DNA of 64,000 nucleotides from Desulfoscipio geothermicus (GTDB lineage: Bacteria; Bacillota; Desulfotomaculia; Desulfotomaculales; Desulfallaceae), in assembly GCA_016841205.1 (NCBI GenBank), contig JAENZP010000014.1:23003-87002 (forward strand), read 5' to 3'. Under the pieces are notes generated by a model, which made no database searches, was not told the origin of the DNA, and was given only the letters and a program-made list of their open reading frames with translations. Positions 5,827 through 25,145 of this stretch are shown here, in pieces; the stretch's first letter is position 1, and the number at the start of each line of letters is the position of its first letter. Position numbers and translations under genes: made by a program.

Positions 5827-5828
5827 CC

Positions 5829-10612: not shown

Positions 10613-10630
10613 GTATAAGGATGAATTAAA

Positions 10631-11140
10631 ATGGTTACCTTGGATACCTTACTTCTTATTACTGATACACTTGGTATAAAAGTTAAATTTAAGGATTTAA
10701 ATAGAAACCACATTGGATTATTGGGAAAGGCCGACGCAAACAAAAGGAAAGTTGTATTAGATAACTCTTTAAAATTTTGTATGCGTGAACAAAAGTGTAT
10801 TCTCTCCGAAGAAATAGGGCATATTCTCTATCCGCCTAGACCTGGTCATATAGCTTACCACGCTCGCGGTTACTATGACATTGACAACATAGAAAGAAGC
10901 ATAATTAAAGTAACTGTTGCCCAGGATGAGCGTAGAGCGCTCGACTGGGCAACAAATGCTTTAATACCAGATGTCGAATTTTGGCGAGCTGTGGAAGAAG
11001 GTGAAAATATATTATATCAATTAGCTGATTGGTTTGAGGTAACTGAGTGGTTTATGCGCATTAAAATAGGGTATATCAGGCGCAAGGCCCTCGACAATGG
11101 AACACGTTTAAAATGGAACGACATAATAAGGCGTAACTAA
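10631..11140 (+). CDS. ImmA/IrrE-family (DUF955) metallopeptidase-like anti-repressor
   Basis: Immediately downstream of the repressor. SEEIGHIL stands in place of the HExxH motif (first His is Glu), followed by ERRALDWATNALIP, which resembles E..AN.FA..LL.P. Confidence 0.6.
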   Translation: MVTLDTLLLITDTLGIKVKFKDLNRNHIGLLGKADANKRKVVLDNSLKFCMREQKCILSEEIGHILYPPRPGHIAYHARGYYDIDNIERSIIKVTVAQDERRALDWATNALIPDVEFWRAVEEGENILYQLADWFEVTEWFMRIKIGYIRRKALDNGTRLKWNDIIRRN

Positions 11141-11595: not shown

Positions 11596-13338
11596 ATGTC
11601 TTATTCTAGTGATGCAGTAAATACAATATTTCAAGAACGTGGTGATTTTATAATTATTGGCCTTACGGGAAGAACTGGCTCTGGTTGTACAACCGTTTCG
11701 AAGATATTATCACAAAATGATTTTGACGCACTTTCTCTACAAACACCTAATGATTATGATTTTAAAGATAATGAACAACGCAAATATAGGCTTATATATA
11801 ATTATGCAAAGGAAAATTGGACCCCTTTCAGATCGATTGGGATGTCCATAGTGTTAGCCTCATTTATTTTTGAAAAAGGTTATAACACTATTAAAAATTT
11901 TATTGATTCCCAAAACGATATTAAAATTCATAGAAAAGAAGAACTATTATCAGAACTTGATACCTTGTCGTCGTCTATTGATGAAATATCACAGGATTTA
12001 AAAACCTTTATAGATGCAAATGGGCGTTTAAAGCGAGATTCTCCTGAAATACAAAAAGGAGAAGTTACGCTATTAGCAAAGATAGATACTGCAACAACTA
12101 ATTTTAAAAACATTTTGAAAAAATATACGTTAACGCAAGATATTGAGGTCGAAGGTGAAAAACAAGAATGTGTTGCGCAAGCATACACATACTTCTTTCA
12201 ACTATTTGGTAATAATGTTAGAGGGAGTGGTAATCCTTTAGACAATTCTTTTAGTGGCAAAAACATGTTTGACTTAGCCATACGTGCAAACGATTTTATA
12301 AAAGCTATTCGTGAATCTCAACAGCTAAAGAACAAACCAACACTTATATGTATTGACGCACTAAGAAACTCCTTCGAAGTAACCTATTTTCAAGATAGAT
12401 TCTCTGCCTTTTATTTAATGGCAATTGTTACGGATGATGAAGAGCGACAACGTCGCTTAGCTGAAATGAACAAAAAACAAATATTAAGTTTAGATGCAAT
12501 GGAGTATCCTAACAAGCTCACGGATGAAAAGCTGTTCAAGCAACAAAATATAGCTGCTTGCTTGGAAATATCAGACATTCATGTTTATAATCCTCAAACA
12601 TCTACTATAAAGAATAATTACTATTTAACTACACAATTGATAAAGTATGTAATGCTAATGAAGCATCCAGGACTTGTAACTCCGACACATATTGAACGGT
12701 GCATGCAAACTGCTTATAATGCTAAATTAAATTCCGGTTGTTTATCACGACAAGTGGGAGCTGTTATTACAGATAAAAACTTTAGTATTAAGGCTGTCGG
12801 TTGGAACGATGTGCCTTCTGGTCAAATATCATGTAATTTAAGAGATGTTAATTCATTATATGTTAATAAAGATTATAATTCGCATAGTAAATTTGAAATA
12901 GAAAATCAGGAGTTTTCTAATAAAATTAACAATCTTAATTCTAAAATTGATTATTCACGACTTAAAGGCCGACTATACCCATATTGTTTCAAGGATATTC
13001 ATGATAAAAAGAATCAAGTCCATACGCGCTCATTACATGCTGAAGAAAATGCCTTTTTACAAATTGTAAAGTATGGAGGAATTGGGATAGAAGGAGGAGT
13101 CTTATTTACAACTGCCAGTCCATGTGAATTATGTTCAAAGAAAGCATATCAACTTGGTATCAAACAAATATATTATATAGATCCATATCCAGGTATATCT
13201 AAAGACCATATATTAACCTTTGGAGATAATAATCCAGAAATAAAACTTTTTTTTGGTGCAATTGGATGTGCTTACACAAAATTATATTCACAACGATTGT
13301 CAATAAAAGATGAATTGAAAATGTTAAATGAAGGATAA
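11596..13338 (+). CDS. P-loop NTPase/kinase-like N-domain fused to CMP/dCMP-type zinc deaminase; AvcD / dCTP-deaminase-type antiphage protein
   Basis: Walker A GLTGRTGSGCTT near the N-terminus. C-terminal deaminase motifs HAEENAF and PCELCSKK. GAGGAG SD. Very AT-rich relative to its neighbours. Confidence 0.7.
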   Translation: MSYSSDAVNTIFQERGDFIIIGLTGRTGSGCTTVSKILSQNDFDALSLQTPNDYDFKDNEQRKYRLIYNYAKENWTPFRSIGMSIVLASFIFEKGYNTIKNFIDSQNDIKIHRKEELLSELDTLSSSIDEISQDLKTFIDANGRLKRDSPEIQKGEVTLLAKIDTATTNFKNILKKYTLTQDIEVEGEKQECVAQAYTYFFQLFGNNVRGSGNPLDNSFSGKNMFDLAIRANDFIKAIRESQQLKNKPTLICIDALRNSFEVTYFQDRFSAFYLMAIVTDDEERQRRLAEMNKKQILSLDAMEYPNKLTDEKLFKQQNIAACLEISDIHVYNPQTSTIKNNYYLTTQLIKYVMLMKHPGLVTPTHIERCMQTAYNAKLNSGCLSRQVGAVITDKNFSIKAVGWNDVPSGQISCNLRDVNSLYVNKDYNSHSKFEIENQEFSNKINNLNSKIDYSRLKGRLYPYCFKDIHDKKNQVHTRSLHAEENAFLQIVKYGGIGIEGGVLFTTASPCELCSKKAYQLGIKQIYYIDPYPGISKDHILTFGDNNPEIKLFFGAIGCAYTKLYSQRLSIKDELKMLNEG

Positions 13339-13543: not shown

Positions 13544-15916
13544 ATGGGAGTGGTGGTGACAAATATAGTCATGGAAAAAAGGCAATTAACTGAGCAGGAA
13601 ATCAGAACTCAATTTATTACTCCTGCCATTAAAAATGCAGGTTGGACAAATGCTCAACTGCGAGAAGAATATCCCATTACAAAAGGGCGCATTATTGCGC
13701 GTGGTGGTACCTACAAACGAGATCATGCCAAGTTTGCCGACTATATTCTTTTTTACAAGTCGCATATCCCCCTTGCAGTTGTGGAGGCAAAGGATAATAA
13801 CCACGCTATTGGCGAAGGTATGCAGCAGGCGCTGGACTATGCCCAGCGCATGATGATCCCGTTCGTATTCACATCCAACGGTGATGGATTTACGTTTCGC
13901 AACCGTATTGATTCAAGCGAAAAAGTTATTGGTTTGACTGACTTCCCTTCCCCGGAATCGCTTTGGCATATTTATAGACAGAATGCCAGAATTGACGGTC
14001 AGCAAGAAAAAGTAATAACACAGCCTTATTATTTAGAGCGCGAGGACAAGGCCCCGCGCTATTACCAACTTAATGCAATCAATCTAACGGTGGATGCCGT
14101 GATACGCGGGCAAGACCGTGTCTTACTTGTCATGGCAACAGGAACAGGCAAAACATATACGGCTTTCCAAATTATCTGGCGGCTTTGGAAAGCGAGTGTT
14201 AAGCACCGCATTTTGTTTCTTGCTGACCGCAATGCCTTGATTGACCAAACCTATGTCAACGATTTTGCGCCGTTCAAGGATAAAATGACGATTATCCGCA
14301 ACCGGAAGATTGATAAATCCTATGAGATCTATCTTGCGTTGTATCAGGGGCTGACCGGTAATGGTGACAAGGATGTCTTTAAACAGTTCAGCCCGAATTT
14401 CTTTGACCTGATTATCGTGGACGAATGCCATCGTGGCAGCGCAAAAGCGAACAGTGAGTGGCGCGAGGTGTTGGAGTATTTCAAACCCGCTGCGCAAATT
14501 GGACTGACTGCCACGCCGAAAGAAGATAAAGATGTGTCGAACATCGATTATTTCGGCAAGCCTATCTATACATACTCGCTCAAGCAAGGTATTAACGACG
14601 GTTTTCTCGCGCCGTACCGGGTGATCCGCGTGCTTTTAGACAAGGATGCCGAGGGCTTCCGACCCTATCTCGGTCAGACTGACCGCTTTGGCAATGAGAT
14701 CATCGACCGCGAATACAACGTCAGCGACTATGATCGCGAACTGGTTTTGGAGCAGCGAACAAAAATTGTTGCCACAGTGGTTTCGAACTATCTGAAAAAG
14801 CATAACATCCGTTATGATAAGACCATCTTTTTCTGTGTAGATACAGAACACGCAGACCGAATGCGGCAGGCTCTTGTCAACGAAAACCGCGATTATGTGA
14901 TCGAAGACGAACGTTATGTCATGCGTATCACCGGCGATGACGACCCTGGTAAAAAGCAATTGGACAATTTTCGTGATGTATCCAGCAAATATCCTGTGCT
15001 TGTTACCACATCAAAGCTGCTCACTACCGGCGTTGACGTCCAGATGGTAAAAAATATCGTACTGGATTCCAATATTAACAGCATGACGGAGTTTAAGCAG
15101 ATTATTGGCCGTGGAACACGCGTCCGTGAAGACTTAGGCAAGATGTTCTTTACCATCTTCGACTTCCGCGATGTTACACGCCACTTTGCCGACCCTGACT
15201 TTGACGGGGCTGTGGAGCAAGACGAAGCTTTTACTCTGGGGCCAAACGAGGAAATTCCACCTTTGCCGAATGACCCGATTGACGATCCCCCCGCCGGTGA
15301 TGACCCAGATTGGCTAGTACCTTCCGGTGGTGACGATCCGCCTACAGGTCGTAGACAAAAATACTATGTCAACGATGTGCCGGTCACCGTTTTAAAGCAA
15401 CGTGTGCAGTATATCGACAAGGACGGTAAGTTGATCACCGAGTCGTTGACTGATTACACGCACCGCAATATGCGCAATCAGTATGCCACGTTGGAGGAAT
15501 TTCTGTCGGCTTGGAACAGTGCAGAACGCAAGCAAATAATTATGGACGAGCTAGCAGCACAGGGTGTTTTCATCGAAGAATTACAGGAGCAAATCGGGCA
15601 GGAGTTTGACCCGTTCGATTTACTTTGCCATGTCGCTTTTGACCAGCCACCACTAACACGGCGCGAGCGGGCAAACAACGTAAAGAAGCGTAACTATTTT
15701 GCGAAGTACGGCGAACAGGCTGCGGCCGTACTAGACGCCTTGCTTGAGAAATACGCCGATTCTGGGGTTTCCAATCTGGAAAGCATGGATATTCTCAAGG
15801 TCAATCCCATTCGGGACTTCGGTTCGCCGGTACACATTGTGAACCGCATTTTCAAGGGGAAAGCGAACTTTGAACAGGCTCTGCGGGAGCTGACCCACGA
15901 ACTCTATGTAGCGTAA
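13544..15916 (+). CDS. hsdR: Type I restriction enzyme R subunit
   Basis: N-terminal EQEIRTQFITPAI, helicase motif I MATGTGKT, DEAD-box IVDECHRGS, GLTATP, TTGVD. The true start may be the ATG at 13571. Confidence 0.9.
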   Translation: MGVVVTNIVMEKRQLTEQEIRTQFITPAIKNAGWTNAQLREEYPITKGRIIARGGTYKRDHAKFADYILFYKSHIPLAVVEAKDNNHAIGEGMQQALDYAQRMMIPFVFTSNGDGFTFRNRIDSSEKVIGLTDFPSPESLWHIYRQNARIDGQQEKVITQPYYLEREDKAPRYYQLNAINLTVDAVIRGQDRVLLVMATGTGKTYTAFQIIWRLWKASVKHRILFLADRNALIDQTYVNDFAPFKDKMTIIRNRKIDKSYEIYLALYQGLTGNGDKDVFKQFSPNFFDLIIVDECHRGSAKANSEWREVLEYFKPAAQIGLTATPKEDKDVSNIDYFGKPIYTYSLKQGINDGFLAPYRVIRVLLDKDAEGFRPYLGQTDRFGNEIIDREYNVSDYDRELVLEQRTKIVATVVSNYLKKHNIRYDKTIFFCVDTEHADRMRQALVNENRDYVIEDERYVMRITGDDDPGKKQLDNFRDVSSKYPVLVTTSKLLTTGVDVQMVKNIVLDSNINSMTEFKQIIGRGTRVREDLGKMFFTIFDFRDVTRHFADPDFDGAVEQDEAFTLGPNEEIPPLPNDPIDDPPAGDDPDWLVPSGGDDPPTGRRQKYYVNDVPVTVLKQRVQYIDKDGKLITESLTDYTHRNMRNQYATLEEFLSAWNSAERKQIIMDELAAQGVFIEELQEQIGQEFDPFDLLCHVAFDQPPLTRRERANNVKKRNYFAKYGEQAAAVLDALLEKYADSGVSNLESMDILKVNPIRDFGSPVHIVNRIFKGKANFEQALRELTHELYVA

Positions 15917-15935
15917 CGAACGGGAGGAACATGAA

Positions 15936-17375
15936 ATGGCAGTTTCAAACACCACCAAAGCCTTAAAGGATATCATGCGTATTGACGCAGGCATCAACGG
16001 TGACGCGCAGTATATTGAGCAGATCACGTGGATGCTGTTCCTGAAGGCATTTGATTATAAAGAACAGGAATGGGAACTAACCGAGGACGATTATTATCCT
16101 GTCATACCCTATGAATACCGGTGGAGTGTTTGGGCGGACGATCCCGAGGGTATCACAGGTGACGCACTGGTTGCCCATGTAGACACGATGTTTGTCACCC
16201 TGCGTAATCTAGATACTTCTGACGACACAAAAAAGCGCAAATGGCTAATTAGGGAAGTCATGGATGGTATTAACAATTTTATGAAGTCCGGCACGCTACT
16301 GCGACAGGTCGTGAACAAAATCAACGCTGACATCAATTTTGACGAGGTCAGAACAGCCCATTTGTTCAACGGATTATATGAAACCATGCTCAAAGATCTG
16401 CAAAGCGCGGGCAAGGCAGGCGAGTTTTATACGCCTCGCCCTGTGACCCGCTTTATTGTGGAGAAAATTGACCCTAAGCTGGGCGAATTCGTCCTCGACC
16501 CGGCATGCGGTACGGGCGGCTTTTTGACCAGCGTGGTTGACCGTTACACAATCAATACAACAGAGGAATATAAGACGCTGCAAGCAACGATAAAGGGTAT
16601 TGAGAAGAAGCCATTTCCCTACTTACTTTGCGTGACCAACCTGATTGCGCACGGAATCGACGTACCGAATATCCGTCATGATAACACACTCCGCACGCCT
16701 GTCGCCGATTATGGCGTCAAGGACAAGGTAGATGTAATTGTCACCAATCCACCTTTCGGCGGCGCGGAGGAAAAGGCGATTTCACAATCCGTATCGGCGG
16801 AATTACGCAACACCGAAACCGCCGACCTGTTCCTTGTACATATTATGGCGCTGCTCAAAGACGGCGGGCGCTGCGGCCTTGTTTTGCCGGACGGCTTCCT
16901 GTTCGGTACCGGCGTTAAGTCCGCCATTAAGAAAAAGTTGCTGGAAGAAAACGACCTGCATACTATCGTGCGCCTGCCAAAGGACGTTTTTGCGCCGTAC
17001 ACAAACATAAACACAAATCTGTTGTTTTTCAAAAAAGGCCGTCCAACAAAAGGCGTATGGTTTTACCGGCTGGAAATGCCTGCGGGTTACAAGCATTTTT
17101 CCAAAACGCGCCCCATGTTAGACGCACATTTCGACCCCCTGCGGAATTGGTGGAACGCCCGCAATGATAGCGACGTTTCGCAGTATGTACCGGTGGAGGA
17201 TATCATTGCAGGCGATTATAACCTTGATCTATGCGGCTTTCAGCACGATACGTTAGAAATTTTGGCTCCTGATGAGTTTATCAATCAATATTTGAATAAT
17301 AAGGCTGCAATCTCTGCTCGTATTGAGAATATATTGGCGCGCATTTCCGCCGCGATGGAACAGGAGGATGTATGA
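15936..17375 (+). CDS. hsdM: Type I R-M N6-adenine DNA methyltransferase subunit
   Basis: AdoMet motif LDPACGTGGFL and catalytic NPPFGG. Its stop overlaps the hsdS start (ATGA). Confidence 0.9.
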   Translation: MAVSNTTKALKDIMRIDAGINGDAQYIEQITWMLFLKAFDYKEQEWELTEDDYYPVIPYEYRWSVWADDPEGITGDALVAHVDTMFVTLRNLDTSDDTKKRKWLIREVMDGINNFMKSGTLLRQVVNKINADINFDEVRTAHLFNGLYETMLKDLQSAGKAGEFYTPRPVTRFIVEKIDPKLGEFVLDPACGTGGFLTSVVDRYTINTTEEYKTLQATIKGIEKKPFPYLLCVTNLIAHGIDVPNIRHDNTLRTPVADYGVKDKVDVIVTNPPFGGAEEKAISQSVSAELRNTETADLFLVHIMALLKDGGRCGLVLPDGFLFGTGVKSAIKKKLLEENDLHTIVRLPKDVFAPYTNINTNLLFFKKGRPTKGVWFYRLEMPAGYKHFSKTRPMLDAHFDPLRNWWNARNDSDVSQYVPVEDIIAGDYNLDLCGFQHDTLEILAPDEFINQYLNNKAAISARIENILARISAAMEQEDV

Positions 17376-18997
17376 TGAAAGCGTCGGAACTCCGCCAATC
17401 CATTCTGCAAGCGGCTGTGCAAGGCAAGCTCGTACCACAAAACGTCCATGACGAACCAGCGGTAGAGTTGCTGAAGCGCATCCGGCAGGAAAAGACACGG
17501 CTTGCAGAGGAAGGCAAAATCAAAAAAGAAAAGCCCCTTCTGCCGATTACAGAGGACGAAATTCCATTCGATTTGCCTGATGGGTGGGTTTGGTGTAGGT
17601 TAGGCACAGTGGCTGATCACTCGCTTGGGAAAATGCTTGACAGTCAGAAAAATAAAGGAGTGAATCAGAAATATCTTAGAAATCAAAATGTACAGTGGTT
17701 TCATTTTGATTTATTAGATTTGAAAGAAATGAAAATCGATCAATCTGAACAGGAGAGATATTCTGTTTCAAAAGGTGATCTTATAATTTGTGAAGGCGGT
17801 TATCCTGGTACATCAGCAATTTGGGAAGAAGAATCTTCGATATTTTTTCAAAAAGCTCTTCACCGCGTCAGATTTTTCCTGCAGGGTATGAACTATTACT
17901 TTCATTATTGTTTATACTTGTCTGCTCTTTCCGGTGACCTAAACAGGTATTATACCGGCTCGGGTATTCAACATTTTACCGGATACTCGTTAAATAGATT
18001 TGTTTTCCCCCTGCCGCCCCTTAGTGAGCAACAGCGCATCGTCGTAAAATTGAACGAGTTGATGACGCTGTGTGATGAACTGGAAGCAGCGGAAGAAGAA
18101 CTAAATGCGCTGGAAAACCGCTTTACCGAGTACCTGCCAAAATCCATCCTGCAGGCGGCGGTGCGGGGTAAACTTGTGTCACAAAACGTCCATGACGAAC
18201 CGGCATCTGAGCTGCTCAAGCGCATCTGGCAAGAAAGGGCACGGCTTATTAAGGAAGGAAAAATCAAAAAAGAAAAGCCTCTCCCCCTGGTTACAAAGGA
18301 TGAAATCCCATACGATTTGCCGGTTGGGTGGGTTTGGTGCAAAATAGGAGATATTGCAAATATATATACTGGCAATAGCATTAATGGAAATGATAAAAAA
18401 ACTAAGTACACGGGCTTGTCAGAAGGATATTTCTATGTTGCAACAAAGGATATAGGACAAGATAATTATATAAACTATGAAAATGGAATTGTAATTCCTT
18501 TTGACAACACTAACTTTCGAATAGCACCTGCATTCAGCGTACTTCTTTGCATTGAAGGTGGAAGTGCAGGTAAAAAGATTGCAATTACTAATCAAGATGT
18601 TTGCTTTGTCAACAAGTTGTGCTGTTTCTCATCTTATATACTTGACAGCAAGTACTTATTCTATTATCTGAAAAGTCCAGTGTTTTCTTCTTTATTTCAG
18701 TCATGCATGACTGGAATCATCGGTGGCGTTGGAGTAAATAGTATTAAAAAATTATTGTTTGTACTCCCGCCCCTCGCCGAGCAGCAGCGCATCATCGCCA
18801 AACTGGACGAACTGATGGCGATGTGCGATGAACTGAAAGACTCAAGGAATATACCCATAAAACCGGTTGTTTCAAATGTCGTGCCATTTCAGCCTAAAGA
18901 GAAATGGGATGAACTGCTTATTGCAGCTCGCGGTGATGCTTCACAAGGCTTGTCCGATAAAGCACAGCATGACGTCGACGAACTGTTGGGGGATTAA
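17372..18997 (+). CDS. hsdS: Type I R-M specificity subunit (two TRDs, duplicated conserved frame)
   Basis: Two copies of SILQAAV.GKLV.QNVHDEPA.ELLKRI...GWVWC and of LPPL.EQQRI..KL.ELM..CDEL flank two AT-rich variable regions. Confidence 0.9.
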   Translation: MMKASELRQSILQAAVQGKLVPQNVHDEPAVELLKRIRQEKTRLAEEGKIKKEKPLLPITEDEIPFDLPDGWVWCRLGTVADHSLGKMLDSQKNKGVNQKYLRNQNVQWFHFDLLDLKEMKIDQSEQERYSVSKGDLIICEGGYPGTSAIWEEESSIFFQKALHRVRFFLQGMNYYFHYCLYLSALSGDLNRYYTGSGIQHFTGYSLNRFVFPLPPLSEQQRIVVKLNELMTLCDELEAAEEELNALENRFTEYLPKSILQAAVRGKLVSQNVHDEPASELLKRIWQERARLIKEGKIKKEKPLPLVTKDEIPYDLPVGWVWCKIGDIANIYTGNSINGNDKKTKYTGLSEGYFYVATKDIGQDNYINYENGIVIPFDNTNFRIAPAFSVLLCIEGGSAGKKIAITNQDVCFVNKLCCFSSYILDSKYLFYYLKSPVFSSLFQSCMTGIIGGVGVNSIKKLLFVLPPLAEQQRIIAKLDELMAMCDELKDSRNIPIKPVVSNVVPFQPKEKWDELLIAARGDASQGLSDKAQHDVDELLGD

Positions 18998-19001: not shown

Positions 19002-19769
19002 ATGAACAACCCGGAGACCAAAGCAAAATGGGTGCTTGAGACAAAAGGTATTTCTGGTGTTCCGGCAGAATCCCTCAAAGCAATCGCCGACAGTGAAAGG
19101 ATAAAGCATAGATATAATGATTACCCAGAGGACGCATGGGACGGTATGCTGCTTTATAAAGGAGATAGAAAAGCCATACTTGTGAACATACGTAGGGGCA
19201 ATACCGGAAAGCATCATTTTACATTCGCGCATGAACTGGGGCATTATTTTCTAAACCATCCGCCGAGTTATATGAAAAATGGGCAATCGGGTTTTCGCTG
19301 TACCTCCGAGGATATAGAAAAAGAGCAAAAGCCGCGTGAGGCTGAGGCCAATCGCTTTGCGGCGGAGTTGCTGATGCCGCAAGACCAATTTCAACTTAAT
19401 ATGGTCGGTGCTCCGCTGGATTTTGGGCTGATAAATGGCCTCTCCAATCGTTATATGGTATCCAAGCATGCTTGCAGCAATCGCATTTTGCAGTTGACAC
19501 ACTCCCCATGCATTATTATTCGCACAAAAGGCAACCAGATCACCAGTTGGAGTGTTTCCCGTGCCGCAAAAGGTCTCCTACGAAAACTGGATGCTCTCCC
19601 GAAAGATACTGCCGCTCATAAAGCAATCGTCAATAAGTGGGGACATTATGATTTTGTAGAATGCGCTGCGGGGAAATGGCTCATTCGTGACGTGCCCGGC
19701 ATAAAGATATACGAATGCACCCATGTACATGCTGGAAGCGGCACAGCAATGACGATATTGAAGTGGTAA
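19002..19769 (+). CDS. ImmA/IrrE-type (COG2856-like) zinc metallopeptidase domain protein with uncharacterised C-terminal domain
   Basis: HEXXH in FTFAHELGHYFLNH plus EAEANRFAAELLMP. The ATG is 4 nt after the hsdS stop. The track ORF start at 18867 overlaps hsdS and is probably spurious. Confidence 0.7.
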   Translation: MNNPETKAKWVLETKGISGVPAESLKAIADSERIKHRYNDYPEDAWDGMLLYKGDRKAILVNIRRGNTGKHHFTFAHELGHYFLNHPPSYMKNGQSGFRCTSEDIEKEQKPREAEANRFAAELLMPQDQFQLNMVGAPLDFGLINGLSNRYMVSKHACSNRILQLTHSPCIIIRTKGNQITSWSVSRAAKGLLRKLDALPKDTAAHKAIVNKWGHYDFVECAAGKWLIRDVPGIKIYECTHVHAGSGTAMTILKW

Positions 19770-20024
19770 ATTTATTATATATAAAGCTCCTGTAACTTGT
19801 TAAGCCTCCGGTTATCTACATACTCATTAGGCTATAATTAGCAGTTATGTGAATAACGTATTATTTATAATTAAAAGTTTTTGATCGCTATAGCCATAGG
19901 GAAAATCTACGAATCTATTATCGGTTATCCAAGATAATATTGAGCTTAGCCGAACAAAAATACGGTAATCCCGTAGATTGGAAAGATGATGCGGATAAAT
20001 TAATGAAAGGGAAGGAGGGATTTT

Positions 20025-21236
20025 ATGCAAAACATAATTAAATTAAAGATTAGTGACGGTGACAAGATTATTTTCGAGAAGCAATTTCTAATCAATGAAG
20101 CTATGATTACGATAAGTGATGATTTTGTCTTAAATATATTAAGACCTTTCAATATTAACAAGGATTCCATCAAGCATTGCTATTTTACATTTGGGCTTAA
20201 TAATACATTTGTCGATATCAAAGATTATTCTTTGACAAATCAAATTTATATTGAGGGTTTTTTTAATCAACCATCACATATTGCTTTTTTAAGATGTAGG
20301 GATACAAAGTTACATATAGTTAACCAAAATATCGAAAAAATGCAGATTGATGGTTATAGTATGCTGGTTGCTGAATGCAAGATCGGAAAGATAGAATTTG
20401 GATTAAATAAACTAGCTGAAATTCTTAGGAACGATCAAAATATTAATGTAACAGAAATACATATTGACAGTATTGATATTCGGCATAGTGTCATAGATGA
20501 AATAAGTTTATCAGCTTCTTGTGATAATATTAATATTCAAGAGTCCGAAGTAAAAATTTTAAGATTAGGGAACATGTTTGGTATATCAAGAGCTATAAGC
20601 CATATAAACATTTGGCGGAATTGTTTAATAAATTCTATTGAACTAGCTTGCCCTGTTAATGTAATGAAAATGTCTGAATCAACGATTAATTTTATTTTAT
20701 CTAAAGCTCAATGCAAAATTAACTCATTAGATATTAAACAAGTAGCTCTTAATAATGCCTATGATTTTAATTTGAATAGTTTTAATGGGTTTAATGTACA
20801 TTCATGGCTATTAATATCTAAATCTGCTGCATCGTCTAAAGATATTGAGCTTCTTGCCCAAGCAAATTATAATATTTCTGATTTATATATGAAAGAAAAG
20901 CCGTGGAACATCAAAATACCTATGCTATTTTTCAAGGCAACCACTGGATATGGTTATAAGCCATTTAGAATTATCTGGTTTTCTTTAATTGTCTTACTAA
21001 TATTCTGCGGTATATTTTCTTTGATGGATATACATAATTCATGCCAACTTAAGACTGATATTTTATTTGATATCTTTCAAGAAAGGATAATATATTCATT
21101 AAATAGCTTTGCTGGAATTAGTGGAAATCAAAACTTAAAGGTAGAATGTGCATTTACTTTGTTAGAAAACATATTGGGAGTTGTTGCTTTTGCTATGTTT
21201 GTAAATGCTCTCTATGTAAAGTATAAAGCTTCTTAA
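20025..21236 (+). CDS. Uncharacterised protein: ~20-residue Ile/Asn-rich solenoid-like repeats followed by a C-terminal 2-TM + pore-loop-like (ion-channel-like) domain
   Basis: GGAAGGAGGG SD. Hydrophobic segments FRIIWFSLIVLLIFCGIFSLM and AFTLLENILGVVAFAMFVNALYV flank IIYSLNSFAGISGNQ. Very AT-rich. Confidence 0.55.
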   Translation: MQNIIKLKISDGDKIIFEKQFLINEAMITISDDFVLNILRPFNINKDSIKHCYFTFGLNNTFVDIKDYSLTNQIYIEGFFNQPSHIAFLRCRDTKLHIVNQNIEKMQIDGYSMLVAECKIGKIEFGLNKLAEILRNDQNINVTEIHIDSIDIRHSVIDEISLSASCDNINIQESEVKILRLGNMFGISRAISHINIWRNCLINSIELACPVNVMKMSESTINFILSKAQCKINSLDIKQVALNNAYDFNLNSFNGFNVHSWLLISKSAASSKDIELLAQANYNISDLYMKEKPWNIKIPMLFFKATTGYGYKPFRIIWFSLIVLLIFCGIFSLMDIHNSCQLKTDILFDIFQERIIYSLNSFAGISGNQNLKVECAFTLLENILGVVAFAMFVNALYVKYKAS

Positions 21237-21238
21237 TA

Positions 21239-21462
21239 GGGTGCGACGTCCTGTCGCACTCTGACTTTGGGGGCCCTCATTCATCTGATAATAGAGTATT
21301 CCCGACACTAGCCAAGATGAAAGGGAATGGCGCGTCGGGAATGCTCGGGACAATATGCCGGACATCGCTCGTGGCGTCGCCATCAGCCGGGTTTTCAACT
21401 GATGCCGAAATGCCCACATTCGTGGGCATTTCGGGAAGCCACCCCCACGTTATGCGACAGAT
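21239..21462 (+). other. GC-rich, strongly self-complementary intergenic element (candidate structured RNA or MITE-like insert)
   Basis: 13-bp perfect hairpin 21405-17/21422-34; 9-bp stem 21298-306/21334-42; 7-bp stem 21241-47/21253-59; 6-bp stem 21381-86/21399-404. Long-range complementarity 21251-58/21453-60 and G5/C5 21269-73/21442-46. Confidence 0.45.
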
Positions 21463-21486
21463 TAGTAATAGAAAGGAAAAGTTATA

Positions 21487-22494
21487 ATGAATTTTTTATA
21501 TTATCCAACTATTGCAATACCGATAGATGAATTGAAGAAGTATGTTTTATATGCTGACAAAATAAGTAGCATAGTTCCTGATGATTATTGTTTTATTGAA
21601 GATAACGAGGACAATAGATTGAATGAGTCCATAACGTCAATGAGCTATTTAGAAGAAATTGGAATTTATGAAAAAACATATTCTTCTAACGTTCTAATTA
21701 GCTATAAAGATACCCTTATAGATGAATTTATGGCTAGAATAATAAAAGAAGAAATATATAGAAAAGTGAAAGCAGGGCATAGACCCTCAACTTGGTGGGA
21801 GCTTTATACATCTAAACTTGATAATACAATTAAAGAGATGCTAATTGAAGAAGGTTTAGCTGAAAAAAGTACATATAATACAGTAATAGTTGCAACTGAA
21901 ATTGCTAGTATATATATGGGTTTATTAGCAGAGTATGCATCGATCTATGGTAAAACTTTTTATTCTACGGTAACAAATGATAATTATTATAAAGAATTGG
22001 TATATAAGCCAATTATAGAAAATGATAGAATTCTTAAGTTAAAATTTAGCATATTAAGTATTTTGCCGGTACCAACAGAAGATACTTCCTTAGAAGATAT
22101 TGTTCACTTTAAAGAAAGAAGAAAAGAAGAGTTATTAAGATTTCAAATACTTATTACTGATATTCAAGGTATACTTGCAAAAGCTCAAGATGTTAGAGAG
22201 TTCAGAGAGGTAATGGATAAATATGAGAAAGTATTTTGTTTGCAACTATTAGAATTAGAAAGCTTACTCAAAGAAAATAGTATTAGTTTTGTTGGGAATA
22301 CAATTGATTGTTTTATATCAAATTCAATTGAGGATTTAATTGAGGATTTAACTGGTATTAATGTTAGTAGAGGAATATTAAAATTAGGACCAGTTATTGA
22401 GAAAAAAATATTTGGAAAGAAATTATTAATAAGAGCTAATCCGACATCTTACTTATTAAGCGCAAACGGTGACAATATTATTAATATAAGATAA
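21487..22494 (+). CDS. Uncharacterised 335-aa soluble protein (N-terminal LYYPTI...YADKISSIVP recalls DUF6236-type proteins; unverified)
   Basis: Long track ORF with an AAAGGAAAAG SD-like stretch. Very AT-rich. No catalytic motif recognised. Confidence 0.55.
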   Translation: MNFLYYPTIAIPIDELKKYVLYADKISSIVPDDYCFIEDNEDNRLNESITSMSYLEEIGIYEKTYSSNVLISYKDTLIDEFMARIIKEEIYRKVKAGHRPSTWWELYTSKLDNTIKEMLIEEGLAEKSTYNTVIVATEIASIYMGLLAEYASIYGKTFYSTVTNDNYYKELVYKPIIENDRILKLKFSILSILPVPTEDTSLEDIVHFKERRKEELLRFQILITDIQGILAKAQDVREFREVMDKYEKVFCLQLLELESLLKENSISFVGNTIDCFISNSIEDLIEDLTGINVSRGILKLGPVIEKKIFGKKLLIRANPTSYLLSANGDNIINIR

Positions 22495-22670: not shown

Positions 22671-22905
22671 ATGGAATATGGCAACTATTCAACAAGCCAT
22701 AAAAATAGTGTTGTTAAGTTTAACCTAGCTGAAGCCACGACTAGGCTAGCTTTAAAGTATAAGGATGTTCGTGCAATAACTTCTGAAGATCAGGACGCCA
22801 CTTTCACCACGATGATGGTTACCGGGTTACGCCGGGGAAGACTGCTCAGCTTACACTGAGAAATGGATAGATATTTGGCGCTTTATATATTGATTGATAG
22901 ATGCC
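22671..22905 (+). pseudogene. Relic of a tyrosine recombinase (phage integrase) gene
   Basis: ...TTMMVTGLRRGRLLSLH*EMDRYLALYILIDR matches the conserved TGLRrgELl.LrW.DiD first-Arg box and is interrupted by a stop. Only about 40 residues of similarity survive. Confidence 0.5.
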
Positions 22906-22949
22906 ATAATAATATTGAATATGTTAAAGTAATTAAGGAAGGGTTGACT

Positions 22950-23156
22950 ATGAAATTTCCTGTTACGATTCATCCTGGTGAGGATGGATATTTTGTGGCT
23001 GAATGCCCAATCGTGCCTGGATGCGTGTCCCAGGGCAAGACAGCAAAAGACGTATTAGACAACATAAAAGAAGCCATTGAATTATGCCTAGAAGTTAGAA
23101 AAGAACAAGGATTACCCCTTGTATTGCCTCTACATGAAGTTGAGGTGGCTATCTAA
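22950..23156 (+). CDS. hicB: HicB-family antitoxin (UPF0150 fold)
   Basis: MKFPVTIHPGEDGYFVAECPIVPGCVSQGKTAKDVLDNIKEAIELCLE. AAGGAAGGG SD before the ATG at 22950. Confidence 0.75.
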   Translation: MKFPVTIHPGEDGYFVAECPIVPGCVSQGKTAKDVLDNIKEAIELCLEVRKEQGLPLVLPLHEVEVAI

Positions 23157-23248: not shown

Positions 23249-24691
23249 ATGCGTTGTGCGGTATACCGTCGAGTATCAACTGATATGCAGGCTGAAGAAG
23301 GTTTCTCTTTAGAGGCTCAAAAAGTTCGTTTAAATGCATATGCGGAATCACAGGGTTGGACTATCGTTGAAGACTATTGTGATGAAGGATTTTCCGCTAA
23401 AAATATTGACCGGCCAGAAATGCAAAGACTAATTACAGACATACAAAATAAGAAATTTGATTTGGTGCTTGTTTATCGTTTAGATCGTTTTGTTCGGTCT
23501 GTGGTTGACTTACATGAATTATTGCAGCTTATGGAAAAATATGATGTTAAATTTAAGAGTGCAACAGAAATGTTTGACACTACATCGGCAACTGGTAGGT
23601 TATTTATTACTCTTATAGCAACATTAGCCCAGTGGGAAAGAGAAACAATAGCAGAGCGTGTACATATGGGTATGACAAAAAAAGTAGAACTTGGTGAAAG
23701 AAACGGAGCTCCTGCCCCATATGGATATGATTTAGTAAATAGAGAGCTTATTATAAATGCTCAAGAATCAAAGTGGGTTAAATATATATTTAATCGCTAT
23801 GGTTTAGTTGGTTCACAAACCATAGCAAAAGAACTGAATCGCAAAGGTATTTCTACCAAAAAAGGTGAAGTATGGAGCGATTTTTCTGTCCGCTATATAC
23901 TTAAAAATCCTATTTATACCGGGTTAGTTCGCTGGAATTACGAAAGCGCTAACAAAGGTGTGCGAAAAAAAACAGGTGAAGAAATTATAACAGAGTTAGC
24001 TCAGCCTAATTTTGAGGCAATTATTAGTACAGAGATATTTAAAGAGACACAAAAACTTATGGCTCAAAGAAGCAATCAAGCCTTTAGATCAGATAATTTC
24101 TATCCATTTTCCGGGGTCGCAAAATGTGAAAAATGCGGCTATTCTTTTACCGGTGGCTTTAAAAAGTTAAAAAGTGGGAAAGTTCATCGTTTTTATAAAT
24201 GCCGCGGTAGAATTAATTTTGGTATTTGTGATGTTCAAGTTATTTCAGAGGCAGCAATAGAAGAAGCTTTTTTAGATATTCTTGAGTTAGTTAAAACAGA
24301 ACTAGCAATTGAACAACCTGGACAAACCGTTTCCACTGAGGATATACAAAAACGATTAAATAGGCTTAAACGAAAAAAAGAACGTGCGGAAGAATTATAT
24401 TTAGAAGGAGATATATCAAAAGACAAGTATATTCGTATTACGGAAGGTATTAAAGTTGAAGAAAAGGATCTATATAGTGTCTTGGATACAACAAATAACG
24501 CTCAATCGTTGGATCAAGTTAAAGAATTACTCCAGAATTTAAAAAACGAATGGCAATACTTCCCATACGAAACTAGAAAGCAAGCCGTCCATTCTCTATT
24601 TAAATCTATAACTATTCGTCTTGCAGAAAAAGCTAATCAAGGTCGGGGTAAAAAAGCTAAAATTGAGATTGTAGATTATAAACTTAATTAA
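23249..24691 (+). CDS. Large serine recombinase (phage integrase type)
   Basis: Resolvase-type N-domain with catalytic Ser (AVYRRVSTDMQ), a recombinase domain, a Cys4 zinc ribbon CEKCG...YKCRG, and a coiled-coil C-terminus. Confidence 0.9.
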   Translation: MRCAVYRRVSTDMQAEEGFSLEAQKVRLNAYAESQGWTIVEDYCDEGFSAKNIDRPEMQRLITDIQNKKFDLVLVYRLDRFVRSVVDLHELLQLMEKYDVKFKSATEMFDTTSATGRLFITLIATLAQWERETIAERVHMGMTKKVELGERNGAPAPYGYDLVNRELIINAQESKWVKYIFNRYGLVGSQTIAKELNRKGISTKKGEVWSDFSVRYILKNPIYTGLVRWNYESANKGVRKKTGEEIITELAQPNFEAIISTEIFKETQKLMAQRSNQAFRSDNFYPFSGVAKCEKCGYSFTGGFKKLKSGKVHRFYKCRGRINFGICDVQVISEAAIEEAFLDILELVKTELAIEQPGQTVSTEDIQKRLNRLKRKKERAEELYLEGDISKDKYIRITEGIKVEEKDLYSVLDTTNNAQSLDQVKELLQNLKNEWQYFPYETRKQAVHSLFKSITIRLAEKANQGRGKKAKIEIVDYKLN

Positions 24692-24722
24692 GATATAGGA
24701 TTATTTACAATATGCTTGGTTC
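24692..24722. other. Element/host junction (att half-site region)
   Basis: The PrkA reading frame (minus strand) stays homologous through ...CPMHEEP (codon P at 24717-24719), then diverges (SIL*) and stops at 24705. Confidence 0.5.
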
Positions 24723-25145
24723 TTCGTGCATAGGGCAGTTTTTAATAGCGTAAACCGCACCACGATCCCGTTTGCTATACTGCTCCAGTCCCCTTTTCAG
24801 CATAGCCACCAAGGTGGACTTACCACCACTTACCGGGCCCATTAAAAGTAAAATGCGCTTGCGCACATCCAAACGACGGGCCGCAGGATGAAAATACTCT
24901 TCAACCAGTTTTTCCAGCGTTCTATCCAGCCCAAAGATTTCCTGGTTAAAGAACTTATAACGCTTACCGCCATATTCCAGTTCCTCCACTCCTGCATCAT
25001 AAAGCATATTGTAAATCCTGGCGTGAGCTAATTGTGCTACTGTGGGATTCTCCTTGACTAAATCCAAATAGTCGTAAAATGTACCTTCCCATCTATACTG
25101 TTTTTCCAGAGAGCGGAATTCATCCAATCTCTTAATAAAATCCAC
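24705..25145 (-). pseudogene. prkA: 5' portion (about 143 codons) of prkA (PrkA serine protein kinase, AAA+ P-loop), interrupted by the element
   Basis: Close match to the B. subtilis PrkA N-terminus as recalled: WEGTF.DYL..VKENP.VAQ, HPAA.RLDVRKRILLLMGPVSGGKSTLV.MLKRGLE, AVYAIK.CPMHE. Full-length PrkA is about 630 aa. Confidence 0.85.

What the first reader, a model, noticed from the sequence alone, without database searches (positions are those of the whole stretch)
20025..21236. Orphan solenoid-repeat + ion-channel-like membrane protein: candidate abortive-infection effector
Seen:
- This 403-aa ORF is much more AT-rich than the host and has a strong SD.
- The first ~300 residues contain ~20-residue Ile/Asn/Ser-rich repeats, such as INVTEIHIDSIDIRHSVIDEIS / LSASCDNINIQESEVKILRLGN / ISRAISHINIWRNCLINSIE / LACPVNVMKMSESTINFILSKAQ / CKINSLDIKQVALNN, suggesting a beta-solenoid.
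- The C-terminus has two hydrophobic helices flanking IIYSLNSFAGISGNQ. That is a 2-TM/pore-loop layout without a K+ selectivity filter.

Inference: a sensor domain fused to a membrane-permeabilising pore is a common logic for abortive infection. I cannot place this protein in any named defence family.
Basis: inference. Interest (0 to 1): 0.7.

Follow-up and report, generated by a model that had tools for sequence, protein, structure and literature searches.

The report
Prophage channel protein, likely anti-phage
A prophage gene encodes an uncharacterised membrane protein: a potassium-channel-type pore that has lost its potassium filter, fused to a large cytoplasmic beta-strand repeat domain. 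Its relatives sit inside or beside known anti-phage systems, so it is a good but untested candidate for a one-gene phage defence that kills the infected cell by opening an ion leak.

Summary
ORF 20025-21236 (+) encodes 403 aa, has 28% GC against about 44% in the flanks, and has a GGAGG site 6 nt before the ATG. It is under purifying selection (dN/dS 0.15-0.21).

It is not an orphan. About 93 clusters at 50% identity share the same ~400-aa architecture.
- C-terminal ~150 residues: a helical linker, an invariant GYGYKP motif and TM1-pore loop-TM2. This module is homologous to 2-TM K+ channels. 41 of 73 relatives hit Pfam Ion_trans_2, and hhalign against a pentapeptide-repeat channel protein gives probability 99.2.
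- Selectivity filter: 35 of 73 relatives keep TTxGYGD. The window's clade has a 2-residue deletion and a degenerate loop (FAGISGNQ).
- N-terminal 250 residues: a confidently modelled beta-solenoid-like domain (pLDDT 91) with no significant match by sequence or fold. It is not detectably a pentapeptide repeat.

The gene lies in a prophage cargo block with a dCTP deaminase, a type I R-M system, a CapP-like peptidase and a serine recombinase. Homologs sit inside BREX operons, next to Gabija, or on integrative elements, with no conserved partner gene.

The only solved structure with similar overall architecture is HalA, the Hailong defence channel, but the match is weak and no HalB partner is present.

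Verdict: a plausible stand-alone sensor-channel abortive-infection protein. Function is untested.

The parts
20014..20018 (+). Shine-Dalgarno GGAGG, 6 nt upstream of the ATG
   Evidence: Read directly from the sequence.
20025..21236 (+). Whole ORF, 403 aa plus stop. Member of an uncharacterised ~400-aa family that fuses a solenoid-like domain to a K+-channel-derived pore.
   Evidence: ORF call. 15 homologs in the 5.8e9-protein database and 93 representative clusters. dN/dS 0.15-0.21.
20025..20159 (+). Residues 1-45: small N-terminal beta/alpha cap (three strands and one helix). Most variable region of the family.
   Evidence: AF2 secondary structure with pLDDT ~90. Mean pairwise identity 0.15 in alignment A3.
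20160..20774 (+). Residues 46-250: cytoplasmic beta-solenoid-like repeat domain, interrupted by a helix at 127-135. Presumed sensor or regulatory domain.
   Evidence: AF2 domain model pLDDT 91, pTM 0.88. Internal duplication by hhalign, probability 95 and 87. The best Foldseek matches are beta-helix and LRR proteins, but none has E<1e-3. No PDB sequence match. No similarity to pentapeptide repeats.
20775..20945 (+). Residues 251-307: three-helix linker (helices 258-270, 274-291, 294-310). Conserved, and shared with pentapeptide-repeat channel proteins.
   Evidence: AF2. Among the most conserved regions after TM2. Aligned by hhalign to the Aeromonas pentapeptide-channel protein.
20946..20969 (+). 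Residues 308-315, GYGYKPFR: near-invariant family motif at the cytoplasmic entry of TM1.
   Evidence: Across the 73 sequences of A3: G308 in 73, G310 in 72, P313 in 72, Y/F309 in 73. Aligns with CGYGEAPMR of the Aeromonas protein.
20961..21038 (+). Residues 313-338: outer transmembrane helix TM1.
   Evidence: Mean hydropathy 1.65. AF2 helix 313-338.
21054..21137 (+). Residues 344-371: pore helix and degenerate filter loop, ...IIYSLNSF--AGISGNQ. It carries a 2-residue deletion relative to the TFTTxGYGD of distant relatives.
   Evidence: Column extract of A3. hhalign alignment of the close-clade profile A2 to a canonical channel.
21138..21224 (+). Residues 372-400: inner helix TM2, with conserved E381 and the hinge glycine G385. 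The protein ends 3 residues later.
   Evidence: E381 in 67 of 73 and G385 in 67 of 73. Hydropathy. Most conserved segment of the family.
19002..19769 (+). Context only: CapP-like M78 metallopeptidase, directly after hsdS and 255 bp upstream of the ORF. No CapH partner is present.
   Evidence: PADLOC capP E 4e-44 and Pfam Peptidase_M78. GC 0.466 matches the hsd genes rather than ORF403.
13544..18997 (+). Context only: type I restriction-modification operon hsdR-hsdM-hsdS.
   Evidence: Pfam and PADLOC.
11596..13338 (+). Context only: anti-phage dCTP deaminase.
   Evidence: PADLOC dCTPase E 1e-124 and Pfam dCMP_cyt_deam_1.
23249..24691 (+). Context only: large serine recombinase at the end of the element, abutting a truncated prkA (24705-25145, minus strand).
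   Evidence: Pfam Resolvase, Recombinase and Zn_ribbon_recom. AAA_PrkA matches only profile positions 2-127 of 358.

Best explanation
ORF403 is a prophage-carried, stand-alone ion-channel protein that most likely works as a self-contained sensor-effector for abortive infection or superinfection defence.

**Shown**
- The C-terminal ~150 residues (three-helix linker, GYGYKPFR, TM1, pore helix and loop, TM2) are homologous to the 2-TM K+ channel pore.
- In this clade the K+ filter is destroyed by a 2-residue deletion and loss of GYGD.
- The 250-residue N-terminal domain is a soluble beta-solenoid-like repeat with no signal peptide.
- The gene and its relatives travel singly within defence loci and mobile elements.

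**Inferred**
- Four subunits form a central pore, as in all K+-channel-type pores. The four solenoid domains hang in the cytoplasm: K/R residues flank the cytoplasmic ends of both TM helices, which gives an N-in, C-in topology.
- In the lysogen the channel is kept shut at the inner-helix bundle. The hinge glycine G385 and E381 are conserved.
- A phage product or an infection-induced change acts on the variable solenoid or cap, and the signal passes through the conserved linker and GYGYKP junction to bend TM2 open.
- Because the filter is degenerate, the open pore passes cations non-selectively. This collapses membrane potential and ATP synthesis, so the superinfecting phage cannot complete its cycle.
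For: **Pore homology**
- 41 of 73 family members hit Pfam Ion_trans_2, best E 1.8e-15.
- The family profile hits K2P, Kir, Shaker, NaK and KcsA chains in the PDB at E down to 2e-7.
- hhalign of the family profile against an Aeromonas pentapeptide-channel protein gives probability 99.2, E 7e-20, over linker plus pore.
- The close-clade profile alone still aligns, at probability 76 and E 2e-5.

**Filter loss**
- 35 of 73 members are canonical.
- About 28 members, including the window protein, carry the deletion.

**Structure**
- Two TM segments.
- Full-length AF2 model: pLDDT 83.6. N-terminal domain model: pLDDT 91.

**Context in the window**
- PHROG phage replication genes and a repressor plus ImmA pair.
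- dCTP deaminase, type I R-M and a serine recombinase inserted in prkA.
- CapP-like peptidase.
- The gene is on the same strand as the repressor and the recombinase.

**Context of homologs**
- Between pglX and pglZ of BREX, with 12-13-nt gaps.
- After Gabija gajA/gajB.
- Next to AbiGi, HNH and a transposase.
- On serine-recombinase elements beside a HEPN protein.
- In an integrase islet with a Card1-like nuclease.
- No neighbour is conserved across loci.

**Distribution and precedent**
- Very patchy: 7 loci among 185,579 species genomes.
- The top Foldseek PDB hit of the whole model is HalA, the Hailong defence channel. Hailong-type HalA proteins are described as pentapeptide repeats plus an IRK K+ channel domain (PMC13586616). 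HalA depolarises cells when it is de-repressed (PMC13434031).
Against: - There is no phenotype, and the protein matches no PADLOC, PHROG, NCBIfam or Pfam model.
- No homolog was found in the phage or plasmid collections or in IMG/VR.
- One homolog locus (L022) shows no clear defence gene.
- Several loci border polysaccharide clusters, which are variable regions but not defence regions.
- A related pentapeptide-channel gene in Aeromonas sits in an ordinary chromosomal context.
- The neighbourhood sample is about 11 lineages with no formal enrichment statistic.
- With a 2-residue deletion in the filter, conduction itself is unproven. The loop could be non-conducting.
- The HalA resemblance is weak (E 0.036, TM 0.23-0.27) and has no sequence support.
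Confidence: 0.5

Rival explanations
1. It is an ordinary regulated cation channel for ion or osmotic homeostasis or signalling. It happens to ride on mobile DNA, and the solenoid domain is a ligand- or protein-binding regulatory domain unrelated to phages.
For: The pore module is shared with widespread pentapeptide-repeat channel proteins. At least one of these, in the Aeromonas caviae chromosome, lies between a response-regulator/TPR gene and exonuclease III, with no defence genes nearby. Half of the family keeps a canonical K+ filter. Locus L022 has ABC-transporter neighbours.
Against: - Extremely sparse distribution, 7 of 185,579 species genomes.
- Strongly atypical GC.
- Repeated placement inside BREX operons and next to Gabija, R-M systems and recombinases.
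- Repeated loss of ion selectivity, which is hard to reconcile with a homeostatic K+ channel.
Confidence: 0.17
2. It is a prophage superinfection-exclusion or membrane-modifying protein that blocks DNA entry or phage assembly at the membrane without killing the cell. The degenerate pore would then serve only as a membrane anchor or oligomerisation scaffold.
For: It is located in the lysogeny-side cargo region of a prophage, on the same strand as the repressor and the integrase. The filter is deleted or degenerate, so conduction is not guaranteed.
Against: - The inner-helix hinge glycine and E381 are conserved in 67 of 73 members, and TM2 is the most conserved segment. This argues for a working gate rather than a mere anchor.
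- The large domain is cytoplasmic, not external, so it is poorly placed to block adsorption or injection.
- Many homologs are not in prophages but inside BREX or Gabija loci.
Confidence: 0.13
3. It is the toxic half of an addiction or stabilisation module of the mobile element, a membrane toxin held in check by a neighbouring gene such as the downstream DUF6236 protein or the HicB-like protein. It would have no dedicated anti-phage role.
For: A channel without a selectivity filter is potentially toxic. An orphan HicB-like antitoxin gene (22863-23156) and a DUF6236 gene with the same low GC (0.273) lie downstream.
Against: No neighbour is conserved across about 11 homolog loci. DUF6236 and HicB do not recur. 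In BREX loci the gene is flanked only by pglX and pglZ. A 250-bp GC-rich spacer separates it from the DUF6236 gene.
Confidence: 0.08
4. It is a phage-benefit viroporin, like the chlorovirus Kcv channel or a pinholin. It would be used by the resident phage during its own lytic cycle, for host depolarisation or lysis timing.
For: It is virus-encoded and a K+-channel-derived pore, and it is AT-rich like other phage cargo.
Against: - It is not in a lysis or structural module. It lies between the repressor and the integrase, among defence genes.
- It has no PHROG match and no hit in 50,697 phage genomes or IMG/VR.
- Homologs occur in non-phage loci such as BREX and Gabija.
Confidence: 0.05

Closest known systems
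Hailong HalA (PDB 9nyi), the DNA-gated tetrameric ion-channel effector of the HalA/HalB anti-phage system (Tan et al. [quoted passage not shown]
   Same: - Overall plan: a cytoplasmic beta-repeat 'crown' domain followed by a K+-channel-type membrane pore.
- Genomic setting: encoded in defence loci or on mobile elements.
- It is the top Foldseek PDB hit of the full-length model and the only hit covering both domains (E 0.036, probability 0.84).
- The expected output, cation leak and depolarisation, is the same.
   Different: - No HalB nucleotidyltransferase partner in the window or in any of about 11 homolog loci.
- No sequence similarity to 9nyi from profiles A2, A3 or A6.
- TM-score is only 0.23-0.27.
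- The N-terminal domain is not a detectable pentapeptide repeat.
- The protein is 403 aa against 333 aa for HalA.
- It must therefore be gated differently, with no constitutively made oligo-dA inhibitor.
Pentapeptide-repeat / 2-TM ion-channel fusion proteins, annotated by PGAP as 'pentapeptide repeat-containing protein' (for example Halomicrobium salinisoli WP_226024059.1 and an unannotated 320-aa ORF in Aeromonas caviae NZ_AP026896.1)
   Same: The homologous C-terminal module has the helical linker, GYGxxPxR, TM1, pore helix and filter, and TM2 with E...G. hhalign gives probability 99.2, E 7e-20. tblastn gives 25-26% identity over about 200-235 residues.
   Different: - Their N-terminal domain is a bona fide pentapeptide (Rfr) helix, with PDB hits to pentapeptide proteins at E 1e-20.
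- The domain in ORF403 shows no similarity to it (hhalign probability 0.2) and has longer strands.
- They keep TTLGYGD, whereas ORF403 has lost it.
Prokaryotic 2-TM K+ and cation channels (KcsA, KirBac, NaK, MthK pore; Pfam Ion_trans_2 PF07885)
   Same: TM1, pore helix, TM2 topology. Gly hinge in the inner helix. Family-level HMM matches. Foldseek TM 0.55-0.65 normalised to the small channel chains.
   Different: - The window protein itself does not reach any Pfam threshold.
- The filter is shortened by 2 residues and lacks T-x-G-Y-G-D.
- There is a 310-residue N-terminal extension of unknown family.
- It is mobile-element cargo rather than a core gene.
Lambda RexAB and mycobacteriophage Sbash gp30/gp31, prophage-encoded systems in which the membrane protein (RexB / gp31) is proposed to act as an ion channel, depolarising infected cells
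   Same: Prophage-encoded and proposed to be lysogenically expressed. [quoted passage not shown]
   Different: Those are two-protein systems with a 4-TM RexB-type channel that is unrelated to K+ channels. ORF403 fuses sensor and pore in one chain. There is no homology.
Single-protein or ligand-gated pore effectors of defence: Rip1, and the membrane-embedded CARF effector Chp1
   Same: They combine sensing and membrane permeabilisation in one polypeptide (Rip1; PMC13434031) or form tetrameric gated pores (Chp1; abstract seen).
   Different: Different folds and triggers. Rip1 forms a ring around phage small terminase or portal. Chp1 is cyclic-oligoadenylate-gated through a CARF domain. ORF403 has neither domain.

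Membership tests
2-TM K+ channel pore superfamily (Pfam Ion_trans_2 / IRK) | Significant profile match to the pore-domain model | tested here: met
   The single sequence gives no hit. Through its family the match is clear: 41 of 73 members hit PF07885 (best E 1.8e-15), 15 hit Ion_trans and 4 hit IRK. The family profile against PDB K+ channels reaches E 2e-7. The close-clade profile against a canonical channel gives hhalign probability 76.
2-TM K+ channel pore superfamily (Pfam Ion_trans_2 / IRK) | Two transmembrane helices flanking a re-entrant pore helix and loop | tested here: met
   Hydropathy peaks at ~310-340 and ~373-398 only. AF2 helices at 313-338, 344-362 and 372-400.
2-TM K+ channel pore superfamily (Pfam Ion_trans_2 / IRK) | Selectivity filter T-[VIT]-G-[YF]-G-[DE] | tested here: not met
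   The window protein has SF--AGISGNQ, with a 2-residue deletion and no GYGD. 35 of 73 relatives keep the canonical filter.
2-TM K+ channel pore superfamily (Pfam Ion_trans_2 / IRK) | Glycine gating hinge in the inner helix | tested here: met
   G385 is conserved in 67 of 73 members, with E381 four residues upstream also in 67 of 73.
2-TM K+ channel pore superfamily (Pfam Ion_trans_2 / IRK) | Homotetramer with a central conduction path; measurable ion flux | not testable with these tools
   Only monomer models could be built.
Pentapeptide-repeat / ion-channel fusion proteins | C-terminal module: helical linker, GYGxxPxR, 2-TM pore | tested here: met
   hhalign of A3 against the Aeromonas 320-aa protein gives probability 99.2, E 7e-20, over 152 columns. 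The motif is conserved in 72-73 of 73 members.
Pentapeptide-repeat / ion-channel fusion proteins | N-terminal pentapeptide (A[DN]LXX) repeats, Rfr quadrilateral beta-helix | tested here: not met
   No Pentapeptide Pfam hit for the window protein. Only 1 of 73 relatives hits, at E 5e-4. The N-terminal profile against a pentapeptide protein gives hhalign probability 0.2. The N-terminal profile gives no match to any pentapeptide protein or to HalA at E<=10 (the only hit, ribosomal protein L20 at E 0.54, is not meaningful).
Hailong (HalA effector) | Adjacent HalB nucleotidyltransferase gene (two-gene operon) | tested here: not met
   The window neighbours are a CapP-like peptidase and a DUF6236 protein. 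No NTase domain was found in the neighbours of homologs.
Hailong (HalA effector) | Sequence homology to HalA (PDB 9nyi) | tested here: not met
   Profiles A2 and A6 give no match to HalA (9nyi) at E<=10 (A2 gives no hit at all; A6's only hit is an unrelated ribosomal protein at E 0.54). With profile A3, 9nyi is not among the 60 best hits, which are all classical K+ channels.
Hailong (HalA effector) | Fold similarity to HalA: cytoplasmic crown plus tetrameric channel | tested here: inconclusive
   9nyi_A is the top Foldseek PDB hit, but at E 0.036, probability 0.84, TM 0.23-0.27 and rmsd 14.9 A over 394 columns.
Hailong (HalA effector) | Channel held closed by oligodeoxyadenylate | not testable with these tools
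   This is a biochemical property (PMC13434031).
Anti-phage defence / abortive infection systems (functional class) | Recurrent location in defence islands or on mobile elements | tested here: met
   Window: prophage cargo with dCTP deaminase and type I R-M. Homologs: BREX-embedded, next to Gabija, next to AbiGi, HNH and an IS, on recombinase elements with HEPN, in an integrase islet with a Card1-like nuclease. One locus has no defence neighbours. The evidence is qualitative, with no formal statistic.
Anti-phage defence / abortive infection systems (functional class) | Match to a model of a known or candidate defence protein | tested here: not met
   The best PADLOC hit is BrxB at E 0.031 and 11.9 bits, which is not meaningful.
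Anti-phage defence / abortive infection systems (functional class) | Protection against phage; infection-triggered cell death or depolarisation | not testable with these tools
   Requires experiments.

The most novel reading that the evidence does not exclude
This family is a new single-gene anti-phage system. It would be a K+-channel-derived tetrameric pore that has repeatedly discarded ion selectivity and is gated directly by its own novel cytoplasmic solenoid domain, in effect a partner-less, self-sensing counterpart of Hailong HalA. It is inserted inside BREX operons and directly behind type I R-M and Gabija loci. It may therefore act as a second-line guard that fires when a phage disables the co-located first-line system, as PrrC does for EcoprrI.
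Probability: 0.35. Interest if true: 0.75.

Novelty: new variant of a known kind. Interest (0 to 1): 0.6.

Why it matters
If confirmed, this would be a compact one-gene immune system of about 1.2 kb, built from a eukaryote-like K+ channel pore.
- It would show that channel-type abortive-infection effectors such as Hailong HalA exist in a partner-less, self-gated form.
- It would provide a natural series for studying how a selective K+ channel evolves into a killing pore: canonical TTxGYGD, then partly degenerate filters, then a 2-residue-deleted filter.
- The N-terminal solenoid has no recognisable relative. It would be a new phage-sensing module whose trigger could be found through escape mutants.
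- The placement inside BREX, Gabija and R-M loci adds a testable case of layered or guard-type defence.
- The family occurs in gut Firmicutes (Roseburia, Subdoligranulum, Catenibacterium) and in archaea, where few defence systems have been characterised.

Tried and rejected
- **Direct family scans.** Pfam, NCBIfam, PADLOC and PHROG scans of the protein gave nothing meaningful (EF1_GNE E 0.14; BrxB E 0.031).
- **Single-sequence repeat periodicity.** The BLOSUM autocorrelation was not significant. The first attempt at this script timed out.
- **N-terminal domain searches.** Foldseek against PDB and BFVD gave no hit with E<1e-3, only generic beta-helix and LRR matches and spurious APOBEC matches. 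The N-terminal profile against PDB sequences gave nothing relevant.
- **Pentapeptide-repeat origin of the solenoid.** Rejected at the detectable level.
- **HalA homology by sequence.** Not found. The primary Hailong paper, the Chp1 preprint and the supplements of the NAR paper are not held, so no HalA sequence could be aligned directly.
- **HalB-like partner.** The HEPN protein next to P0008 (L006) has no NTase domain and no PDB relative. The window's DUF6236 protein has no PDB relative.
- **Sbash gp30/31.** I recalled this system as being K+-channel-like. The paper shows it is RexAB-like with a 4-TM channel, so it is an analogy only.
- **Third word-indexed search.** Using the wide profile, it was swamped by generic channels and added nothing.
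- **Locus scans.** The search for related loci with the wide alignment failed because no stretch was conserved enough. With the close alignment it found 7 genome loci and no viral contigs.
- **Phage and plasmid collections.** blastn and tblastn gave no match for ORF403.
- **Promoter and terminator scan.** Uninformative in this AT-rich DNA.
- **Exact lookup.** The window protein is not on record in the contig index.
Full report
**1. Observation**

- A GGAGG sits at 20014-20018, 6 nt upstream of the ATG.
- The gene has 28.1% GC. The type I R-M genes and the CapP-like gene immediately upstream have 42-48%, and the window as a whole has 42.8%.
- It is a real gene under purifying selection. dN/dS is 0.15 against an 84%-identical Desulfosporosinus homolog and 0.21 against a 59%-identical one.
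- Hydropathy shows exactly two membrane-spanning segments, at ~310-340 and ~373-398.
- The claimed ~20-residue repeats are not significant as a simple sequence period. Profile comparison of family sub-blocks does detect internal duplication (probability 95 with E 2e-8, and probability 87).
- AlphaFold2 models residues 51-246 as a regular series of short strands, about two per 20 residues, with high confidence (domain model pLDDT 91, pTM 0.88; full-length model pLDDT 83.6).

**2. The family**

The protein matches nothing in Pfam, NCBIfam, PADLOC or PHROGs on its own, but it is not an orphan.
- The word-indexed database of 5.8 billion proteins holds 15 relatives.
- The exhaustive search of 1.84 billion representatives finds 93 clusters with E<=1e-3. 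Nearly all are ~400 aa and match end to end.
- Sources name them only 'hypothetical protein' or 'Ion channel'. Hosts include Desulfosporosinus, Roseburia intestinalis, Subdoligranulum, Catenibacterium, other Clostridia, and Methanomicrobiales and Woesearchaeota archaea.
- Among one genome for each of 185,579 species, only 7 loci were found.

**3. The C-terminal module is a K+-channel pore that has lost its filter**

I aligned 73 full-length members (alignment A3).
- 41 of the 73 hit Pfam Ion_trans_2 (best E 1.8e-15), 15 hit Ion_trans and 4 hit IRK.
- The family profile matches K2P, Kir, Shaker, NaK and KcsA chains in the PDB over profile positions ~314-405.
- The pore-loop columns show that 35 of 73 members carry a canonical 'YFS..TFTTxG[YF]G[DE]..P'. 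About 10 have point-degenerate versions.
- About 28 members, the clade that contains the window protein, have a 2-residue deletion and loops such as 'AAI--AGQSG' or, in the window protein, 'NSF--AGISGNQ'.
- Even the close-clade profile alone aligns to a canonical channel with exactly this gap (hhalign probability 76).
- The inner helix keeps E381 and the hinge glycine G385 in 67 of 73 members. TM2 is the most conserved segment of the protein.
- Just before TM1 there is a near-invariant GYGYKP(F)R motif (G308 in 73 of 73, G310 in 72, P313 in 72).

**4. Link to pentapeptide-repeat channel proteins**

- A tblastn search with a canonical member found 'pentapeptide repeat-containing protein' genes in a Halomicrobium plasmid and in an Aeromonas caviae record.
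- hhalign of the family profile against the Aeromonas 320-aa protein gives probability 99.2 and E 7e-20 over 152 columns. The aligned region covers the three-helix linker, the motif (CGYGEAPMR aligned with TGYGYKPFR) and the whole pore.
- ORF403 therefore belongs, through its C-terminal 150 residues, to the wider group of proteins that fuse a beta-repeat domain to a 2-TM channel.
- Its N-terminal domain is different. The N-terminal profile has no similarity to pentapeptide repeats (hhalign probability 0.2) and no meaningful PDB sequence match at E<=10 (the only hit is ribosomal protein L20 at E 0.54).
- Foldseek gives no significant match in PDB or BFVD. The nearest folds are beta-helix and LRR solenoids at TM 0.3-0.4.
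- There is no signal peptide, and K/R residues flank the cytoplasmic ends of both TM helices. This gives the usual N-in, C-in channel topology, so the 310-residue N-terminal part is cytoplasmic (inference from the sequence).

**5. Genomic context**

*In the window.*
- Positions 1-24691 look like a temperate phage.
- PHROG replication and DNA-metabolism genes lie on the minus strand at 519-8726, and an Xre repressor plus ImmA-like protease lie at 10154-11140.
- A same-strand cargo block follows:
  - an anti-phage dCTP deaminase (PADLOC E 1e-124);
  - a type I R-M operon (hsdRMS);
  - a CapP-like M78 peptidase (PADLOC capP E 4e-44) with no CapH partner;
  - ORF403;
  - a DUF6236 gene;
  - a HicB-like gene;
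  - a large serine recombinase that abuts a prkA gene truncated after ~146 residues.
- ORF403 has its own 255-bp AT-rich upstream region, and its GC content is unlike that of the R-M and CapP-like block. It therefore looks like an independently acquired cassette.

*Homolog loci.*

| Homolog / locus | Neighbourhood |
|---|---|
| P0013 and P0012 (68% identical to each other) | Inside type 1 BREX operons, 12-13 nt from the upstream gene (pglX in the P0013 locus; an unassigned 364-aa gene in the P0012 locus) and from pglZ downstream |
| P0010 (L001) | 2 kb downstream of Gabija gajA/gajB and other ATPase systems |
| Acidaminobacteraceae relative (L017) | 73 nt after a Gabija-like pair |
| P0005 (L003) | Next to AbiGi, an HNH protein and a transposase |
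| P0008 (seen on 28 contigs; L006-L009) | On an element with three serine recombinases, Xre regulators and a convergent HEPN protein |
| Clostridia relative (L013) | Integrase islet with a Card1-like nuclease |
| P0002 (L010) | Phage-like region |
| P0015 (L022) | No clear defence gene |

No neighbour is conserved across these loci, and no nucleotidyltransferase appears in any of them.

**6. Comparison with known systems**

- The full-length model's best PDB match is 9nyi_A, HalA of the Hailong system. It is the only hit spanning both domains, but the match is weak (E 0.036, probability 0.84, TM 0.23-0.27).
- According to a 2026 review, HalA is a homotetrameric DNA-gated ion channel with a cytoplasmic crown. 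It is held shut by oligo-dA made by HalB and depolarises the cell when a phage nuclease removes the ligand (PMC13434031).
- ORF403 therefore works on the same plan but fails the membership tests. It has no HalB, no sequence similarity to 9nyi, and a non-pentapeptide N-terminal domain.
- RexAB and Sbash gp30/31, Rip1 and Chp1 are functional analogies only.

**7. Mechanism**

*Shown.*
- The pore descends from K+ channels and has a destroyed filter.
- The gate elements are conserved.
- The solenoid is cytoplasmic, and together with the N-terminal cap it is the most variable part of the family.
- The gene stands alone among defence and mobile DNA.

*Inferred.*
- The protein forms a tetramer that is closed in the lysogen.
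- An infection cue acts on the solenoid or cap.
- The conserved linker and GYGYKP junction transmit the signal to TM2.
- The filterless pore leaks cations, membrane potential collapses and the infection aborts.

I give this explanation about 0.5. The rivals are:
- an ordinary regulated channel riding on mobile DNA (0.17), supported by the chromosomal Aeromonas relative;
- a non-lethal exclusion or scaffold role (0.13);
- an addiction toxin (0.08);
- a phage-benefit viroporin (0.05).

**8. Novelty and score**

- The class, ion-channel abortive-infection effectors built on a K+-channel-like pore, is now known through Hailong.
- This family is unrecognised by every library tested, has no partner gene, has a new sensor fold, and shows progressive loss of ion selectivity.
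- I rate it a new variant of a known kind with interest 0.6. It is a well-supported, directly testable candidate, but it is not proven and is not categorically new.

Noticed in passing
window 1-25145: The left 24.7 kb of the window is a temperate-phage-like element. It has PHROG replication genes, an Xre repressor plus ImmA and a cargo block, and it ends in a large serine recombinase (23249-24691). The recombinase abuts a prkA gene cut off after ~146 aa (24705-25145, minus strand), so the element appears to be inserted in prkA, a sporulation-associated kinase gene. The other half of prkA is not in the window.
   Followed up: partly
window 11596-13338 (+): A 580-aa protein combining an N-terminal P-loop domain (weak AAA_18 match) with a dCMP/cytidine deaminase domain. 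It matches the PADLOC dCTPase (anti-phage dCTP deaminase) model at E 1e-124. It is also low in GC (0.316).
   Followed up: partly
window 19002-19769 (+): A CapP-like M78 metallopeptidase (PADLOC capP E 4e-44, HEXXH motif) starts 5 nt after the hsdS stop. It has the GC content of the R-M operon, and no CapH-type HTH partner lies next to it. CapP normally works with CapH, so an R-M-linked orphan is unusual.
   Followed up: no
window 21237-21486: A 250-bp spacer with 52% GC lies between two genes of 27-28% GC. It contains three strong hairpins (13/13 bp at 21405-21434, 12/13 bp at 21294-21346, 9/10 bp at 21238-21262). It is unique in the window, absent from the homolog loci, and has no Rfam match.
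   Followed up: partly
window 21487-22494 (+): A 335-aa DUF6236 protein (Pfam E 2e-8; phrog_23128 E 1e-7) with the same very low GC (0.273) as ORF403. It has no PADLOC or PDB match and does not recur next to ORF403 homologs. Function unknown.
   Followed up: partly
window 22671-23156 (+): A HicB-like antitoxin (22863-23156) is preceded by a 62-aa ORF (22671-22859) that matches no HicA or other Pfam family. This may be an orphan antitoxin or a novel toxin partner.
   Followed up: no
L003 4764-6061 and L019 4962-6262: A gene pair of 152 aa (faint Zn_ribbon_3 match) and ~280 aa (no Pfam match) occurs near ORF403 homologs in two unrelated loci. In one of them it lies inside a BREX operon between brxC and pglX. 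It may be another embedded two-gene defence candidate.
   Followed up: no
L006-L009 11324-12580 (-): A 418-aa protein with a C-terminal HEPN domain (E 3e-11) and an unassigned 290-aa N-terminal region lies convergent to the P0008 homolog. The arrangement is conserved in four metagenomic contigs on a serine-recombinase element. No NTase domain was found.
   Followed up: partly
P0043 (family member) residues 292-403: A canonical-filter member matches phrog_15350 (a 494-position phage family of unknown function) at E 2e-11 through the channel module only. Some phages therefore carry large proteins ending in the same pore module.
   Followed up: no
window 50753-50866 (-): A 5S rRNA is the only Rfam match in the whole window at gathering threshold.
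   Followed up: no
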